From positions 32,001 through 96,000 of the forward strand of contig JBEKDT010000004.1 in NCBI GenBank assembly GCA_050014195.1: a stretch of 64,000 bases of DNA. Direction: 5' to 3'. The translations under genes were made by a program, and so were the position numbers. The stretch comes from Desulfomonilia bacterium (GTDB lineage Bacteria; Desulfobacterota; Desulfomonilia; UBA1062). Below are positions 18,459 through 33,950 of this stretch, piece by piece (positions within the stretch are counted from its first letter, which is position 1; every line of letters begins with the position of its first letter). The notes beneath the pieces were generated by a model. The model was not told the origin of the DNA, did not search any database, and saw only the letters and a list, made by a program, of their open reading frames with translations.

Positions 18459-18726
18459 AACAGGAGAGAGCGGATTTCAAACTAACTCTTAAAAACAAAG
18501 CTAAGCACCTTCCCTTTTCTCACTCAAGTTTTATCTTGCAAATAAATTAGTATGGTGTCCCCGGATTACGCGCTTTCTGAACCATGCTCTTTTCCCGCAC
18601 AGGGCATACTACCGGCAAGCAAAATCCCATAATCTTCCCATAGTGTCTTCATATTTTCTCCACAATCGACTGGTAAATTTCACTAGTATTGATATCGAAG
18701 AGGATACTAGGAGGAATACAAGATCC

Positions 18727-20553
18727 ATGCAGGACCAACTGATCAATCAAATGGCCTCTTTGGAGGCATTGGTCTTCAACAAAACGACGGGTAATCATCA
18801 AGAACTTCTTGAGGAGGCGCAAAAGATTTGCACCGATATTTTGCGCGAAAATCCTGAAGATCCCGACTTCATTTGCATGCGAGGCATTATCGACTTTCAT
18901 CTTGGACAGACTAAAGAGGCAGAGGCTTGGATGGAAAAAGCCTTGATCATTGCGCCTCAATCAACCGCGATCATCTATAACTATGCCATGATACTGATGG
19001 CCCAGGAGAAGTTTGCCGTCGCTTTACCTCTCATGATGCGAGTTGTCGCTCTTAAGCCGGATCATGCCAAAGCCTATTGGCATATCGGCAACGTTTTAAG
19101 AAAAACCGGTGATTTTGCGGGCGCTTTGGCGGCTTTCAACAAAGCGCAGGAAATCAACCCGCAAGATGTTGAGACCTTAAACGATACAGGAAATACGCTG
19201 GCTGAGGCTTTGAACGATAAGGGAACTATGCTGAAAGAAATAGGCCGTCTGCCCGAAGCGACCACTTGCTACGAAGAAGCCTTGAGCCTCAATCCGAACC
19301 ATCATGGGTTCATCAATAATCTCGGCGTCATCCATTTTCTGCAAAACAATCAGGACACCGCCGAGGCATTATATAAGGCGGCTCTCACAATTCACCCAGA
19401 GTATCCCGAAGCACACAGTAATCTGGGTGGGATCCTGCGATTTAAAGGTGATCTTGATGGGGCGATCCTTCATTGCCAAAAAGCCTTGGCCTTTCGTCCG
19501 GATTATCCGGATGCTCTCAACAACCTCGGCAACGCCTTTAAGGATGCCAGACGTTTTGAGGAAGCAATTGTGGCTTATAATGAGGCTTTGCGCCTTGTAC
19601 CCGACAATGCCGAGTTTCACATGAATCTGGCGTCGGCATTGTTGGCGTTGGGGCGCTTTGACGAAGGATGGCTCGGGTTTGAATGGCGCTGGAAATCGAA
19701 GCAACTTAGCCATACCTTCCGGGATTTTGCCCAGCCTAAGTGGCAAGGCGAGGCCGGCGAAGGGCGAACCCTTCTGATCCACGCCGAGCAGGGATTCGGA
19801 GACACCTTGCAATTCTGCCGCTATGCGCCTCTCGTCAAAGAGCGCGGGTTCCATGTAGTTATGGAGGTGCCGCCGCCGTTGAAGCGGATCATTCAATCTT
19901 TGGATGGCGTCGAAAAGGTTGTGACCACAGGCGATGTCCTTCCGCCTTTCGATTTTCACTGTCCAATGATGAACCTGCCCTTGGCATTTCATACGACTGT
20001 CGAGACGATACCGGCCAAGCTTCCCTATCTGAGCCCTGACCCAGCCGATTTGGCAAAATGGCGGGATCGAGTTGCGACCTTGGCGAACGACGCTTTAAAA
20101 GTCGGCCTCGTATGGGCGGGAAGATCACGCACCCACTCGCCCGATCTTATTGCGACGGAACAGAAAAGATCCATTGCGCAAGAGGTCCTGGCTCCTTTGA
20201 TGGTTGTGCCGAACGTGCAACTCTTCTCCCTGCAGAAAGAAGGAACGCGGGCCCCTGACGCTTTTCCTCTGATTGATTGGATGGCAGAATGCCACGATTT
20301 TGCCGATACGGCGGCACTCATCATGAATCTGGATCTTGTAATCAGCGTCGACACGGCCGTCGCTCATTTGGCTGGAGCCTTGGGCAAGCCGGTGTGGCTG
20401 TTGAACCGGTTCAACAGCTGCTGGCGCTGGCTCGCCGAACGCGACGACAGCCCTTGGTATCCCGGCACACTCCGTCTTTTTCACCAGAAAGAAATGGGTA
20501 ATTGGGATGAAGTCGTAATGCGTGTCCGCGCAGCCTTAGCGGAAAGGCATTGA
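18727..20553 (+). CDS. TPR-repeat protein with C-terminal glycosyltransferase (GT9-like) domain
   Basis: Multiple TPRs (ALNNLGNA...), then EQGFGDTLQFCRY, VGLVWAG, DLVISVDTAVAHLAGALG, WRW...SPWY; start reassigned to ATG 18727 behind GGAGG. Confidence 0.88.
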   Translation: MQDQLINQMASLEALVFNKTTGNHQELLEEAQKICTDILRENPEDPDFICMRGIIDFHLGQTKEAEAWMEKALIIAPQSTAIIYNYAMILMAQEKFAVALPLMMRVVALKPDHAKAYWHIGNVLRKTGDFAGALAAFNKAQEINPQDVETLNDTGNTLAEALNDKGTMLKEIGRLPEATTCYEEALSLNPNHHGFINNLGVIHFLQNNQDTAEALYKAALTIHPEYPEAHSNLGGILRFKGDLDGAILHCQKALAFRPDYPDALNNLGNAFKDARRFEEAIVAYNEALRLVPDNAEFHMNLASALLALGRFDEGWLGFEWRWKSKQLSHTFRDFAQPKWQGEAGEGRTLLIHAEQGFGDTLQFCRYAPLVKERGFHVVMEVPPPLKRIIQSLDGVEKVVTTGDVLPPFDFHCPMMNLPLAFHTTVETIPAKLPYLSPDPADLAKWRDRVATLANDALKVGLVWAGRSRTHSPDLIATEQKRSIAQEVLAPLMVVPNVQLFSLQKEGTRAPDAFPLIDWMAECHDFADTAALIMNLDLVISVDTAVAHLAGALGKPVWLLNRFNSCWRWLAERDDSPWYPGTLRLFHQKEMGNWDEVVMRVRAALAERH

Positions 20554-20732
20554 TCCGGGATCTCGGCTACCTGCTGGAGCTCCAGGCAATGCAGGCCAAA
20601 AGGCATGCAGGGAATCAGGAACTCGTGCTCTCCATCAACCTCGACTGGCCCATGCAGATCACGGAGACGGAGTTCTTCAGGCGGATAAAGGAAATGCCCA
20701 AGGGAAAGGTGTACGGATTTCTTTCCAGATAA
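20550..20732 (+). pseudogene. 3' remnant of a Fic gene (paralogue of 23846-25039)
   Basis: VLSINLDWPMQITETEFFRRIKEMPKGKVYGFLSR is identical to the C-terminus of the intact Fic. Confidence 0.9.
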
Positions 20733-20962
20733 CTGAGGGGGGAATCGAGGATGGATTTTGGGGAACCCGACGATATAAAACCAGTATGGATGTCCCCAGA
20801 TTTCCATACCTGACCAGCTTATCACAAGAAAAGGGGACAAACCATTTTCGAGAATTAATTAATAGAAATGGTCTCTTACACCATTATTACCCATGTAGAC
20901 AACAAACGTGCTTCACTCGTCATCTAAATTATAAAACAATCGAAAATTACAGGGAGAGACAC

Positions 20963-32643: not shown

Positions 32644-32950
32644 GATTAACCCCTTCCTGTAGCCAATGTTGTTTAAGTTGAAATAAACTATTTCACATTT
32701 ATTGTAAAAAAAACAGTCCCCTTTCTCTCCACCGTTTATGGTTTTCTGTAAACCTAAAAATAGAGCAGTCCCCTTTTTCCCGTCAATCTGAGGATCGAAT
32801 TCAGAGGCCAGGGCCGACCTAAAAAATAAATCTGTCCCCTTTTCTTCCTTTAGTATATAATCATAATCATTCAAATTTATTTTGACGCAAAATAATCTAC
32901 GATCACATCTACGATTAAATGAAGTTCATATTTTTTGTGAAGGAATCTAT

Positions 32951-33886
32951 ATGCAATCTAATATACATTTTCGTTTTAAAGGCTTTGATTCTGATAATAG
33001 TGATATAAATTTAACTGATCTAGGAAGTTCCTTAATAGGTTTTGATAAGGTTATAAGGAAACTTACAAAAACAGTTAATCTCAAAGGTGAAATCTTTATT
33101 AAGGCATCATCTTATCGTGATGGTTCGATAATTGTCGATGCAATAGTTGAGATAATTAATGAATATAATCAATTGCCGTTTGATAAGCTAAGTGATTTAC
33201 TAGATTTTTTAAAAATTGCTAATGATATCGCTTGGCAACAAGCTAATCATTTTTTTGCTGATATAAGCAATAATTATAAAACATTAAATGATTATTTTAC
33301 ATCTCATCCACTCGATTTAGGATTACTTATTTTTGCGATAACTGAGTTAATTGATTACGCAAAAGATCATAAAAAAACCTCAGATCTTGGCAAGAGCAAA
33401 TTACCAGTTCGAATCGCAAAAAAATTACATTTATTAATTCGAAAACATGGTTTTAAATCAGTAGTAAAACCAATGGTAGAAGATAAAATATCTTCAATTG
33501 AAATAAGCCCTGACAGAGAATTTAAAAAGTCTGCGATAATTGATCAGACAAATTTTGAAAAATATTTAGCAGAAGATGATATGATACTACCTGAACTTGA
33601 AAATGGTAATATTTATCCTCTAATTGGCGTAATAACCAGTTTAAAAAGTACAAGAGGGGATAGTCTGACATTTAAATATGTACCTACGAAAAAAATATAT
33701 TATTTAGATTTATTGCCTCCAGATGGGATCTCAACGAAGAAATATAGAGATTACTATCAGGATGAGGTTATGATTAAAGCTGAAGTGATAAGATCTTCTT
33801 TATATAAGAAACCCAAATTGAAAATAGTCGATATTGGATATAAAGACCTTACCCTAGATTTTAATAATGAATTATATGAGAAATGA
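32951..33886 (+). CDS. Hypothetical protein (AT-rich island)
   Basis: Long ORF with ATG behind AAGGA; no motif recognised; flanked by GWCCCC sites. Confidence 0.75.
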   Translation: MQSNIHFRFKGFDSDNSDINLTDLGSSLIGFDKVIRKLTKTVNLKGEIFIKASSYRDGSIIVDAIVEIINEYNQLPFDKLSDLLDFLKIANDIAWQQANHFFADISNNYKTLNDYFTSHPLDLGLLIFAITELIDYAKDHKKTSDLGKSKLPVRIAKKLHLLIRKHGFKSVVKPMVEDKISSIEISPDREFKKSAIIDQTNFEKYLAEDDMILPELENGNIYPLIGVITSLKSTRGDSLTFKYVPTKKIYYLDLLPPDGISTKKYRDYYQDEVMIKAEVIRSSLYKKPKLKIVDIGYKDLTLDFNNELYEK

Positions 33887-33950
33887 GAACCCGTCCCCAG
33901 TTTCTTTTCTTAAGTTGTTTAATTTTTGTTATCTTAAATGATGAAAATAT

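What the first reader, a model, noticed from the sequence alone, without database searches (positions are those of the whole stretch)
18551..33903. Integrase-free, cassette-like gene array punctuated by a family of A-rich/GWCCCC sites
Seen: over 15 kb, nearly every intergenic gap carries a related site of about 20 bp (AAAATGGTCTCTGACCCCATTT, AAATAAATCTGTCCCCTTT, TATGGTGTCCCCGGATT, CAAGGCCTGACCCC, AAATGAGAACCCGTCCCCAGTTT). Many form inverted pairs around an AT-rich spacer (23544-23604, 27746-27795, 28413-28472). Unpaired copies read GWCCCC on the + strand, and some are stacked three deep (30579-30661, 32707-32843). I saw no intergenic copies in the housekeeping flanks. The units between sites are 1-2 unrelated genes of very different base composition (TPR-GT, Fic, TA pair, acyl-CoA ligase, holin-like, thiolase, AT-rich defence-like genes), mostly co-oriented. 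Known: integron attC sites have RYYYAAC...GTTRRRY ends, which these lack, and no integrase or transposase is encoded here. From memory (unverified), GGGG(A/T)CA-cored short inverted repeats occur beside some HUH/Y1 TnpA-like genes. Inference: a gene-capture platform driven in trans by an unknown recombinase or HUH nuclease, with stacked sites as scars of successive insertions or empty cassettes.
Basis: partly seen in the sequence, partly recalled or inferred. Interest (0 to 1): 0.88.

Follow-up and report, generated by a model that had tools for sequence, protein, structure and literature searches.

The report
Transposase-linked short repeats punctuating variable island
The GWCCCC sites are the end-repeats of a known but little-studied family of single-strand-DNA (HUH/Y1) transposase genes, piled up unusually densely and all pointing one way in a fast-changing stretch of accessory genes beside a ribosomal RNA operon.

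Summary
All quoted sites exist. A simple pattern (G[AT]CCCC, 0-2 bases, TTT) hits 16 times in one 15-kb stretch here. The best stretch elsewhere in the 4.2-Mb genome has 3, and four control patterns peak at 4-6.

The sites fall into five classes (A-E). Each class also flanks, as outward-facing inverted repeats, a Y1 HUH gene with NH[VYF]H and Y..(L/M)NP motifs:
- class B in this genome (contig C5);
- C, D and E, and an A-like form, in relatives.

That is the published TIRYT/"TIRtron" arrangement, TnpA_Y1 subclass 2.1, whose repeats share GGGGWSAS. There is no integron integrase, and the sites do not have attC-type ends.

The locus, from an EF-hand gene to the rRNA operon, is hypervariable across the genus. 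Many homology breaks fall at site edges, and one 68-nt doublet is a clean indel. Other breaks are not at sites, and contigs from four runs showed no alternative junctions. A gene-capture role therefore remains unproven (about 0.15).

Verdict: new members of a known kind, in an unusual, co-oriented, dense arrangement.

The parts
18549..33903 (.). Site-dense, gene-variable array. It lies inside a hypervariable locus that runs from the EF-hand gene (17123-18184) to the 5S end of the rRNA operon (37353).
   Evidence: Density. Comparison with G002, G006, G007 and G008. rRNA operon.
18549..18567 (+). Class B site (solo), of the form ..GTATGGTGTCCCCGGATT.
   Evidence: The same motif flanks the Y1 gene on contig C5.
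20784..20803 (+). Class B site (solo). The homology block with G002 ends at 20803/20804.
20829..20888 (.). Degenerate inverted pair: a left arm ending in GGGGAC and a right arm of A-like type. The next homology block with G002 starts at 20866.
21433..21473 (.). Class A short hairpin (the left foot carries GGGGTCAG; the right arm is degenerate). Homology with G002 ends at 21474.
21484..21502 (+). Class C site (solo).
   Evidence: The same motif flanks Y1 genes in G059 and G002.
23544..23604 (.). Class A inverted doublet with 21-nt arms and an AT-rich spacer.
   Evidence: z -2.0.
25050..25067 (-). E-like site. It is the only unpaired copy on the - strand.
25091..25110 (+). Class B site (solo), part of the duplicated module.
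25785..25825 (.). Class A short hairpin. The duplicated module ends at 25823/25824.
   Evidence: z -2.7.
27746..27795 (.). Class C inverted doublet. The homology block with G008 ends at 27795.
   Evidence: I20; z -5.1.
28411..28474 (.). Class A inverted doublet. Positions 28414-28481 are a clean 68-nt indel against G002, with no target duplication beyond one ambiguous base.
   Evidence: z -4.1.
28856..28895 (+). C-like site followed by a ..CCTGACCCCATTTTT tail. Homology with G002 ends at 28864, inside the motif.
29233..29256 (+). Class A site (solo). It lies inside a 60-nt copy (29211-29270) of 31371-31430.
   Evidence: Its fold is not significant (z -0.6).
30577..30600 (+). Class A site, first of the three-deep stack.
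30606..30624 (+). Class B site, second of the stack.
30648..30661 (+). Class D site, third of the stack.
   Evidence: The fuller D motif flanks Y1 genes in G003 and G042.
31394..31417 (+). Class A site (solo), starting 12 nt after the PIN stop codon. The G000-specific toxin-antitoxin module ends at about 31429.
32706..32851 (+). Three class C sites (32706-32733, 32758-32785, 32824-32851) upstream of the thiolase gene.
   Evidence: D12. A single unit does not fold (z +0.7).
33881..33903 (+). Class E site (solo), between the DUF7946 and DUF6119 genes.
   Evidence: The same motif flanks a Y1 gene in G007.
18643..20553 (+). TPR plus glycosyltransferase-9 gene. It has 85-90% identical copies at other loci of G000, G002 and G003.
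20544..21472 (+). Module duplicated at 24851-25824 (86% identity). It holds a Fic-gene 3' piece, a B site, a small secreted W/Y/R-rich protein and an A hairpin.
21524..23501 (-). ThiN (21524-22081) and MFS transporter (22278-23501) genes.
23846..25039 (+). Fic-domain gene. It matches the SoFic defence model.
25915..27708 (+). AMP-binding (acyl-CoA ligase-like) gene. Orthologues are present at the same locus in G006 and G008.
28485..28832 (+). Holin_4_2 family gene. Orthologues are present in G002, G007 and G008.
29373..30422 (+). Nitronate monooxygenase-family gene. In G002 it lies directly next to the thiolase gene.
30730..31382 (+). MazE-like and PIN toxin-antitoxin pair. It sits at a different position in the array in G002 and G007. 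A PIN 3' fragment lies at 18244-18449.
31453..32679 (-). Thiolase-like gene. The conserved part ends near 32679, while the listed ORF runs to 32874.
32882..37133 (+). AT-rich block (GC 0.29-0.33) holding DUF7946, DUF6119, two small ORFs and an M78 peptidase (CapP-like). The E site is the only site inside it.

Best explanation
The A-rich/GWCCCC sites are copies of the terminal inverted repeats of TIRYT-type Y1 HUH transposase genes ('TIRtrons'; TnpA_Y1 subclass 2.1, equal to RAYT group 1). Read on the other strand, each begins with the family's shared GGGGWSAS-type core.

Five repeat classes (A-E) are present. They occur as solo ends and as inverted doublets, that is, two ends around a short AT-rich spacer, like miniature REPIN/MITE-type elements. 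They are non-autonomous. By analogy with IS200/IS605 and TnpA_REP (inferred, not shown), a Y1 enzyme supplied in trans nicks and rejoins single-stranded DNA at the core, which moves or copies the short elements without target duplication.

The sites are concentrated here because the stretch between the EF-hand gene and the rRNA operon is an accessory, recombination-prone locus where three things hold:
(i) insertions are tolerated;
(ii) imported segments bring their own repeat classes. Four of the five classes have no intact cognate gene in this genome;
(iii) the repeats themselves offer short shared homologies at which segments are exchanged.

Shown: the identity of the motifs with the flanks of Y1 genes, the extreme local density, the variability of the locus, one clean doublet indel, and the expansion of class A in a congener.

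Inferred: the enzymatic mechanism, and the reason for the clustering and for the common orientation.
For: (1) Own genome. A 155-aa Y1 gene on contig C5 is flanked 17 and 54 nt away by outward-facing class B repeats. The gene scores 48.3 bits on PF01797 against a cut-off of 23. Its best NCBIfam hit is REP_Tyr_transpos. It carries the motifs NHVH and YIELNP.

(2) Relatives.
- Class C flanks Y1 genes in G059 and in G002, where the gene sits inside the orthologous array.
- Class D flanks Y1 genes in G003 and G042.
- Class E flanks one in G007.
- An A-like motif flanks one in G051.
- Of 22 RAYT-like loci, 20 have an ORF with HuH plus Y..NP. Seven of these 20 carry outward GWCCCC copies on both sides within 450 nt. 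The count is 9 if copies overlapping the ORF ends are included.

(3) Named genomes. Of 73 orthologue loci with full flanks, from Desulfobacterota, Planctomycetota, Elusimicrobiota and others, 45 have GWCCCC-type copies on both sides. Thirty-seven have arms at least 18/26 identical, all ending ..GT.T.GTGTCCCC-like.

(4) Literature.
- TIRs of TIRYT genes share GGGGWSAS, form moderately abundant families, and occur in dimers or clusters (PMC3733652, passages).
- Subclass 2.1 has the motifs NHVH/NH[YF]H and YIELNP/Y[IV]HLNP and is prevalent in epsilon-, beta- and delta-proteobacteria (PMC6006769, section 15).
- Group 1 RAYTs are associated with about 12 copies of the flanking 16-mers (PMC5581495, passages).

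(5) Mobility. Positions 28414-28481, an A doublet, are a clean 68-nt indel against G002. Class A has 43 near-identical hits in G014, as doublets, nested quadruplets and tandem stacks, against 10 here.

(6) Y1 gene remnants in this genome lie next to such sites at C4:154214-154354, C22:608-745 and C13:144085-144183.

(7) Stacks of different classes (D, A pair, B) also occur in G003.
Against: - No enzyme activity or movement has been observed.
- For class A I found no exactly matching cognate Y1 gene. The G014 RAYT-like gene has no such flanks, and the G051 flanks are only A-like.
- The class E core (GGGGACGG) departs from GGGGWSAS at one position.
- Passive accumulation does not by itself explain why 15 of 16 unpaired copies of five different classes point the same way, nor why the density is five-fold above any other 15-kb window.
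- The same arrangement is found unchanged in contigs of four further peat/wetland runs, so the elements are not visibly active now. Contigs hide rare variants, so this is weak evidence.
- The Y1 protein scores below NCBIfam's cut-off for canonical RAYTs (63.9 against 80). It has no sequence-detectable solved structure.
Confidence: 0.78

Rival explanations
1. HUH-driven cassette platform. Co-oriented TIR ends act as recombination sites at which a TIRYT enzyme, acting in trans on single-stranded DNA, excises and inserts gene-sized segments. The array would then be an integron-like gene-capture locus built on a Y1 nuclease instead of an integrase.
For: - Homology blocks against G002, G006, G007 and G008 end at or within 2 nt of a site edge at 20804, 20866, 21474, 25823, 27795 and 28413. 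That is 6 of about 17 block ends in the array. Most of the others lie within 30 nt of a site.
- Gene-content replacements are bounded by sites in both genomes (21474|27817 and 28864|29273).
- The toxin-antitoxin pair sits at different positions in the array in G000, G002 and G007.
- Site number rises with the number of variable genes: 17 sites in G002's 23-kb array, 5 in G008, 4 in G007, 0 in compact G006.
- An intact class C TIRtron sits inside G002's array, and its end truncates the Fic gene.
- 15 of 16 solo sites share one orientation.
Against: - Intergenic gaps are short and largely filled by sites, so closeness to a site is partly trivial.
- Several exact coincidences are explained by gain or loss of the sites themselves (28413/28482).
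- Some gene-level breakpoints are not at sites: 30424 is 154 nt from the nearest site, 20544 lies at the TPR-GT stop codon, 18737 lies inside an ORF, and the 29211-29270 scar starts inside the PIN 3' end.
- No module was found bounded by sites on both sides in two unrelated contexts.
- No circle or skipped junction appeared in four runs (contigs only, depth 4-6).
- There is no Y1 gene or remnant in this window.
Confidence: 0.15
2. The sites are primarily transcript-end elements (terminators or mRNA 3' stabilisers) kept by selection between independently expressed genes. Any transposase link would be historical.
For: - Solo sites lie downstream of + strand genes, in the sense orientation, with a T-rich tail.
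- Doublets fold into long hairpins.
- In the second cluster on the contig, doublets sit between convergent genes.
- REPs in general lie mostly downstream of coding regions (PMC3733652 abstract).
Against: - The terminator scan found 17 sites against 20.3 expected, and only one coincides with a site (28454-28468).
- Solo A and C units have no significant structure (z -0.6 and +0.7).
- Hairpin loops are 14-30 nt.
- Two doublets (23544-23604 and 28411-28474) lie upstream of genes, in divergent or promoter-side positions.
- This role does not explain the identity of the motifs with Y1 gene flanks across phyla.
Confidence: 0.1
3. The sites are attC-like sites of an integron remnant (a cluster of attC sites lacking an integrase), or sites of another tyrosine recombinase.
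For: The doublets have an attC-like layout: two imperfectly palindromic arms of about 21 nt around a variable centre of 4-30 nt. The cassette-like gene content includes a toxin-antitoxin pair.
Against: - No integron integrase is present. The best TIGR02249 match is 82.7 bits against a cut-off of 265, and none lies on this contig.
- The arm ends read AAATGGGG.../...CCCCATTT, not the RYYYAAC/GTTRRRY quoted in the finding.
- Most sites are solo half-elements.
- The motifs flank Y1 genes instead.
Confidence: 0.02
4. The sites are operator boxes of one regulator that co-regulates the island.
For: The motifs recur in nearly every gap of the island, and some lie upstream of genes.
Against: - There are five distinct classes.
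- Arm spacing in doublets varies from 4 to 30 nt, which is incompatible with a fixed dimer geometry.
- Most copies lie downstream of genes.
- One doublet is a clean indel.
- The same motifs flank Y1 genes in distant phyla.
Confidence: 0.03

Closest known systems
TIRtrons / TIRYT (TIR-associated tyrosine transposases; Di Nocera et al. 2013, PMC3733652), equal to TnpA_Y1 subclass 2.1 (Quentin et al. 2018, PMC6006769) and RAYT group 1 (Bertels et al. 2017, PMC5581495)
   Same: - A Y1 HUH gene is flanked by outward-facing inverted repeats whose outer end fits GGGGWSAS.
- The protein motifs are NHVH/NH[YF]H and YIELNP/Y[IV]HLNP.
- The repeats are low to moderate in copy number and occur as singles, dimers and clusters.
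- Several classes occur per lineage, each with its own gene.
   Different: - Most copies of five classes sit in one 15-kb accessory locus, nearly all co-oriented, between unrelated genes.
- Four of the five classes lack an intact cognate gene in the genome.
- I did not find such an arrangement described in the passages read. Only 3 papers in the library contain the words TIRYT or TIRtron. The figures and supplements that list TIR sequences could not be seen.
REP/REPIN-RAYT systems and BIMEs (Nunvar 2010; Bertels and Rainey 2011; seen as search listing and abstracts only)
   Same: - They are short non-autonomous repeats tied to a single-copy Y1 transposase.
- Inverted doublets form hairpins.
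- Different repeat types occur in mixed clusters.
- Insertion leaves no target duplication.
   Different: - There is no GT[AG]G foot.
- Solo units are not palindromic.
- There are tens of copies, not hundreds.
- The protein scores below the NCBIfam RAYT cut-off.
- The genome has separate canonical GTAG-type REPs, with top 12-mers at about 50 copies.
Integron cassette arrays, including arrays without an integrase
   Same: Co-oriented, unrelated, mostly single genes, including a toxin-antitoxin pair, are separated by imperfectly palindromic sites. The array is variable between close relatives.
   Different: There is no IntI, no attC-type ends and no attI/Pc. The sites belong to a Y1 HUH system and are mostly half-elements.
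IS200/IS605 elements (the mechanistic model for Y1 enzymes)
   Same: The catalytic core is HUH/Y1. Insertion leaves no target duplication. The ends show strand asymmetry.
   Different: The ends here are true inverted repeats rather than two different sub-terminal hairpins on one strand. The gene is single-copy. The genome's own IS200-like gene (C1, 127 bits) has no such flanks.

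Membership tests
TIRtron / TIRYT repeats (TnpA_Y1 subclass 2.1) | The repeat carries the shared core GGGGWSAS at its outer end. 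| tested here: met
   Read on the opposite strand: A GGGGTCAG, B GGGGACAC or GGGGACAT, C GGGGACAG, D GGGGTCAG. E (GGGGACGG) misses one position. The consensus is taken from PMC3733652.
TIRtron / TIRYT repeats (TnpA_Y1 subclass 2.1) | The same repeat flanks a Y1 gene as an inverted pair. | tested here: met
   B in G000 contig C5. C in G002 and G059. D in G003 and G042. E in G007. A only as an A-like form in G051. 37 of 73 named orthologue loci have arms at least 18/26 alike.
TIRtron / TIRYT repeats (TnpA_Y1 subclass 2.1) | The protein has HuH motif NHVH/NH[YF]H and Y motif YIELNP/Y[IV]HLNP. | tested here: met
   G000 has NHVH and YIELNP. 20 of 22 relatives' loci have NH[VYFI]H plus Y..NP. The motif table is in PMC6006769 section 15.
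TIRtron / TIRYT repeats (TnpA_Y1 subclass 2.1) | The enzyme cuts or joins the repeats. | not testable with these tools
   This needs biochemistry. As far as the passages I read go, it has not been shown for this subclass either.
Canonical REP/REPIN-RAYT | A 5' GT[AG]G tetranucleotide at the foot of a hairpin in each unit. | tested here: not met
   Classes A, C, D and E have none, and B has GTAT. Solo A and C units do not fold beyond shuffles.
Canonical REP/REPIN-RAYT | The protein reaches the curated RAYT model. | tested here: not met
   NF047646 scores 63.9 bits against a cut-off of 80.
Canonical REP/REPIN-RAYT | High copy number, dispersed in intergenic DNA. | tested here: not met
   There are about 10-20 copies per class in G000, mostly on one contig. 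In G014 class A reaches 43 hits on 10 contigs.
Canonical REP/REPIN-RAYT | Inverted doublets that form hairpins. | tested here: met
   A and C doublets fold with z from -2.0 to -5.3.
Integron / attC array | An integron integrase is present in the genome. | tested here: not met
   The best TIGR02249 match is 82.7 bits against a cut-off of 265. All 15 matches lie on other contigs.
Integron / attC array | attC ends of the RYYYAAC ... GTTRRRY type (as quoted in the finding). | tested here: not met
   By inspection of the three doublets and their flanks. IntegronFinder's model was not available.
Intrinsic terminators | A G+C-rich stem, a loop of 3-8 nt, then a T run. | tested here: not met
   17 terminator-like sites were found against 20.3 expected. 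Only 28454-28468 overlaps a site.

The most novel reading that the evidence does not exclude
The co-oriented GGGGWSAS ends are working recombination sites of a Y1 HUH (TIRYT) enzyme that shuffles gene-sized single-stranded segments in and out of a dedicated locus beside the rRNA operon. This would be an integron-like gene-capture platform with a nuclease-ligase of the IS200/RAYT superfamily in place of an integrase. It would give the large, function-less TnpA_Y1 subclass 2.1 a role.
Probability: 0.15. Interest if true: 0.85.

Novelty: new member of a known kind. Interest (0 to 1): 0.45.

Why it matters
According to the paper read, TnpA_Y1 subclass 2.1 (TIRYT, RAYT group 1) is the second-largest group of Y1 HUH proteins, found in about 15% of strains. 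The passages I read give it no demonstrated activity or role.

This locus offers a compact natural test bed:
- five repeat classes in one place;
- an intact enzyme elsewhere in the genome;
- a second enzyme inside the orthologous array of a close relative;
- clean indels;
- a striking common orientation.

If the ends only accumulate here, this is a well-documented example of how such repeats mark and perhaps destabilise accessory loci. If they mediate segment exchange, it would be a new route of gene capture.

For annotation, it warns against reading such arrays as integron-like on layout alone.

Tried and rejected
- Integron reading: rejected.
- Canonical terminators: rejected as the main identity.
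- Genome-wide over-represented 12-mers (after a time-out) gave other repeat families (GTAG-type REPs and a CACGAAG-type repeat), not these sites. These sites are low-copy.
- Rfam found only the rRNA operon and tRNAs in the window.
- A phmmer search of the Y1 protein against solved structures gave no hit at E 0.01.
- Search for a cognate Y1 gene for class A:
  - The G014 RAYT-like gene has no such flanks.
  - Two outward-facing A-like sites in G003 enclose an IS481-like DDE gene, but that gene has its own ends and the A sites are separate.
  - Two in G011 enclose an ordinary ATPase-like gene.
- Short patterns with mismatches for classes B, D and E were too noisy. Reversed controls gave 47, 2 and 55 hits against 57, 15 and 23. 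I used them only by eye.
- Listing the generic pattern over three relatives was cut off before the relevant contig. I counted on the fetched loci instead.
- Contigs of four peat/wetland runs laid on 18000-37400 showed no joints. Their loose ends fall at the genome-wide REP copies (22198, 23627-23669), not at the GWCCCC sites among those listed. Depth is 4-6 and contigs only, so this says nothing about rare events.
- GC skew of the contig is too weak to fix the replication direction.
- Supplementary files, and hence the lists of TIR sequences and species in PMC3733652 and PMC6006769, could not be seen. I cannot say whether any of the five classes, or this lineage, is already tabulated there.

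Full report
**What is there**

The window is contig C4:32001-96000 of a 4.2-Mb, 29-contig genome. The same stretch occurs almost unchanged in contigs of 24 peat and wetland metagenome runs.

The bare hexamer GWCCCC is not over-represented in the window: 60 found against 77 expected. However, 24 of the 60 fall in the finding's 24% of the window. The longer sites are what matter.

By eye and by repeat finding the sites fall into five classes:

| Class | Form | Notes |
|---|---|---|
| A | ..AAAATGGTCTCTGACCCCATTT | often two 21-nt arms in inverted orientation around an AT-rich spacer of 4-30 nt |
| B | ..AGTAT(G/T)G(T/A)GTCCCC(G/A)GATT | |
| C | ..AAAATAAATCTGTCCCCTTTT | |
| D | ..AAG(A/G)CCTGACCCC | |
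| E | ..AAATGAGAACCCGTCCCC | |

Doublets fold as long hairpins in single-stranded DNA (z from -2.0 to -5.3). Solo A and C units do not fold (z -0.6 and +0.7).

**Is it more than chance?**

Yes, and strongly so.
- The class A 20-mer with up to 3 mismatches has 14 hits in the genome. Twelve are on contig C4 and 9 are inside the finding.
- A weight matrix trained on those 14 puts 16 of its 20 best hits on C4. They form two clusters: the finding, and C4:146-172 kb. This test is partly circular.
- A simple generic pattern, G[AT]CCCC, 0-2 bases, TTT, has 171 hits in the genome. Sixteen fall in one 15-kb window (window coordinates 20501-35500). The best window elsewhere has 3, among 1530 windows. Four control patterns peak at 4-6. 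I chose the pattern after seeing the sites.
- Within the 64-kb window, 16 of the 17 hits lie in the array and one lies in the flanks.
- Fifteen of 16 unpaired sites read GWCCCC on the + strand.

**What the sites are**

The genome has two Y1_Tnp genes. One is IS200-like, on C1. The other is a 155-aa gene on C5. It scores 48.3 bits on PF01797, and its best NCBIfam hit is REP_Tyr_transpos at 63.9 bits, below the cut-off of 80. Outward-facing class B repeats flank the C5 gene 17 and 54 nt away.

In relatives the other classes play the same part:
- class E flanks a Y1 gene in G007;
- class D in G003 and G042;
- class C in G059 and G002;
- an A-like motif in G051.

Of 22 RAYT-like loci from the taxonomic family, 20 have an ORF with NH[VYFI]H and Y..NP motifs. 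Seven of these 20 carry outward GWCCCC copies on both sides within 450 nt. The count is 9 if copies overlapping the ORF ends are included. Four have none.

Orthologues of the C5 protein (60-75% identity) occur in named Desulfobacterota, Planctomycetota, Elusimicrobiota and other genomes. Of the 73 such loci with full flanks, 45 have such copies on both sides. Thirty-seven have arms at least 18/26 identical, at a conserved distance, all of class B type.

This is a described arrangement.
- Di Nocera et al. (PMC3733652, passages read) named such genes TIRYTs and the units TIRtrons. They noted that many of their terminal inverted repeats share GGGGWSAS, form moderately abundant families, and occur in dimers or clusters.
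- Quentin et al. (PMC6006769, sections 12 and 15 read) equate them with TnpA_Y1 subclass 2.1. That subclass has HuH NHVH/NH[YF]H and Y motif YIELNP/Y[IV]HLNP and is prevalent in epsilon-, beta- and delta-proteobacteria. The C5 protein has NHVH and YIELNP.
- Bertels et al. (PMC5581495, passages) report about 12 genomic copies of the 16-mers flanking group 1 RAYTs. That fits the copy numbers here.

**What the sites are not**

- They are not attC sites. No integron integrase is present: the best match is 82.7 bits against a cut-off of 265, and none is on this contig. The arm ends do not have the attC-type ends quoted in the finding.
- They are not canonical terminators. The scan found 17 terminator-like sites against 20.3 expected, and only one overlaps a site.
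- They are not canonical REPs. There is no GT[AG]G foot, and solo units are not palindromic. The genome has separate GTAG-type REPs at about 50 copies.

**The locus**

The array lies between an EF-hand repeat gene (17123-18184) and the 5S end of an rRNA operon (37353-42561, - strand). No ORF scanned is a recombinase, and tblastn with 21 Y1 proteins finds nothing in the window. GC per kb ranges from 0.29 to 0.60.

The same locus in four congeners keeps the ends but differs inside:
- G006: EF-hand, ligase, thiolase.
- G008: adds a holin gene and other genes.
- G007: has the toxin-antitoxin pair next to the rRNA operon.
- G002: 95% identical in shared genes, with a roughly 32-kb version in which the nitronate-monooxygenase and thiolase genes are adjacent and the toxin-antitoxin pair follows the holin gene.

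Site counts follow the size of the array:

| Genome | Generic-pattern sites | Span |
|---|---|---|
| G002 | 17 | 23 kb |
| G008 | 5 | about 16 kb |
| G007 | 4 | about 17 kb |
| G006 | 0 | 12-kb piece |

G002's array contains an intact class C TIRtron (C10:9597-10292). Its left end abuts a truncated Fic gene.

**Breakpoints: evidence for**

- Homology blocks end at or within 2 nt of a site edge at 20804, 20866, 21474, 25823, 27795 and 28413. Most others lie within 30 nt of a site.
- Where gene content is replaced (21474|27817 and 28864|29273), both genomes carry sites at the junctions. Sometimes the class differs at the same position.
- The A doublet at 28414-28481 is a clean 68-nt indel with no target duplication. 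This is expected for Y1 enzymes, by analogy with IS200/IS605; that is established knowledge, not tested here.

**Breakpoints: evidence against**

- The left end of the G000-specific toxin-antitoxin module (30424) is 154 nt from any site.
- The duplicated 930-bp module starts at 20544/24851, inside a Fic-gene 3' piece.
- The TPR-GT copy begins inside an ORF, at about 18737.
- The 60-nt scar at 29211-29270 starts in a PIN 3' end.
- Intergenic gaps are short and largely occupied by sites, so proximity alone is weak evidence.

**Activity**

- Class A has 43 nearly identical hits in G014, on 10 contigs, as doublets, nested quadruplets and tandem stacks. This genome has 10. Ten of the 14 same-genus genomes have at least one. 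The class has therefore multiplied recently in one lineage.
- In this genome three Y1 remnants lie next to such sites outside the window.
- Contigs from four further runs reproduce the array without any joint. These were contigs only, at depth 4-6, so rare events would be invisible.

**Most likely mechanism** (confidence 0.78 for identity, lower for the reason behind the clustering)

The sites are solo ends and miniature doublets of TIRtron repeats, moved in trans by Y1 enzymes on single-stranded DNA. They accumulate in an accessory locus that tolerates insertions, receives segments from relatives carrying their own repeat classes, and recombines at the shared short homologies.

The common orientation is not explained by this picture. 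It may reflect strand-specific insertion relative to replication, but contig skew is too weak to decide. It may instead reflect selection for a transcript-end role.

The bolder reading is that the ends are the working sites of a Y1-based gene-capture platform. It fits the edge coincidences, the orientation and the TIRtron inside G002's array. It lacks any module bounded by sites in two contexts and any junction evidence. I put it at 0.15.

**Novelty**

The repeat kind and its enzyme family are known. These five classes, in this peat-dwelling lineage of the Desulfobacterota neighbourhood (judged from named orthologue hosts; the genome itself is unnamed), are new members.

I did not find the dense, co-oriented, multi-class punctuation of one hypervariable locus described. 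Only three papers in the library hold the words TIRYT or TIRtron. The figures and supplements of the two key papers could not be seen.

**Limits**

- IntegronFinder was not available.
- Only four relatives were aligned.
- The generic pattern and the class definitions were made after inspection.

Noticed in passing
window 23609-23699 and 22131-22199: Two other short interspersed repeats sit in the same gaps. One is a GC-rich palindromic unit with at least 12 copies on other contigs. The other is a 67-69-nt unit with 97% identical copies on C5 and C17 and many in G002. In the laid metagenome contigs, loose ends fall exactly at these repeats.
   Followed up: partly
whole genome: The most frequent 12-mers belong to a CACGAAG(A/G)(G/A)CACGAAG-type repeat (up to 68 copies) and to GTAG-footed palindromes of the ..GTAGGAGCGGCTTTAGCCGCGAC type (about 50 copies). 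The genome therefore also holds canonical REP families, separate from the GWCCCC sites.
   Followed up: no
window 20544-21472 and 24851-25824: A duplicated module of about 930 bp (86% identity) encodes a small protein with a signal-peptide-like start and a W/Y/R-rich, Q/G-repeat tail (P0001, P0002). The protein has no Pfam match. Copies also occur in G002.
   Followed up: partly
window 18244-18449 and 29211-29270: A 3' fragment of a PIN toxin gene (78% identical to 31168-31373) lies at 18244-18449. A 60-nt copy of the PIN end plus an A site (85% identical to 31371-31430) lies at 29211-29270. Both look like relics of earlier positions of the toxin-antitoxin pair. G002 has the pair at the second place.
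   Followed up: partly
window 23846-25039 and 35808-37133: The Fic protein matches the SoFic defence model (156 bits). The M78 peptidase matches CapP (82.5 bits). It follows a 109-aa ORF and a DUF6119 gene in an AT-rich block (GC about 0.3) that abuts the 5S rRNA gene.
   Followed up: partly
G000 C4:144-172 kb (L009, L010): A second, looser cluster of A, B, D and E sites lies among radical-SAM, HerA-like helicase, DNA methylase and fatty-acid-oxidation genes. It includes a decayed E-class TIRtron, with E sites at C4:152383 and 154373 and a Y1 fragment at 154214-154354.
   Followed up: partly
G000 contig ends (C2:66, C3:72, C12:68, C17:108472, C18:66, C19:66, C26:69): The same 24-nt sequence stands about 66-72 nt from seven contig ends. 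A multi-copy element probably broke the assembly there.
   Followed up: no
window 17186-17848: The EF-hand gene carries internal tandem repeats of 237 nt (93% identity). Its orthologues in congeners are only 48-68% identical.
   Followed up: no
L076-L155: Orthologues of the C5 Y1 protein at 60-75% identity, with nearly the same terminal repeat, occur in Planctomycetota, Desulfobacterota, Elusimicrobiota, Verrucomicrobiota and proteobacterial genomes. There are several copies in some Planctomycetia assemblies. This suggests horizontal spread of the whole unit.
   Followed up: partly
L037 (G003:C1:205500-210500): An IS481-like DDE transposase gene with its own ends is inserted beside a tRNA 3' fragment. 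It is followed by a D site, an A doublet and a B site in a row.
   Followed up: partly
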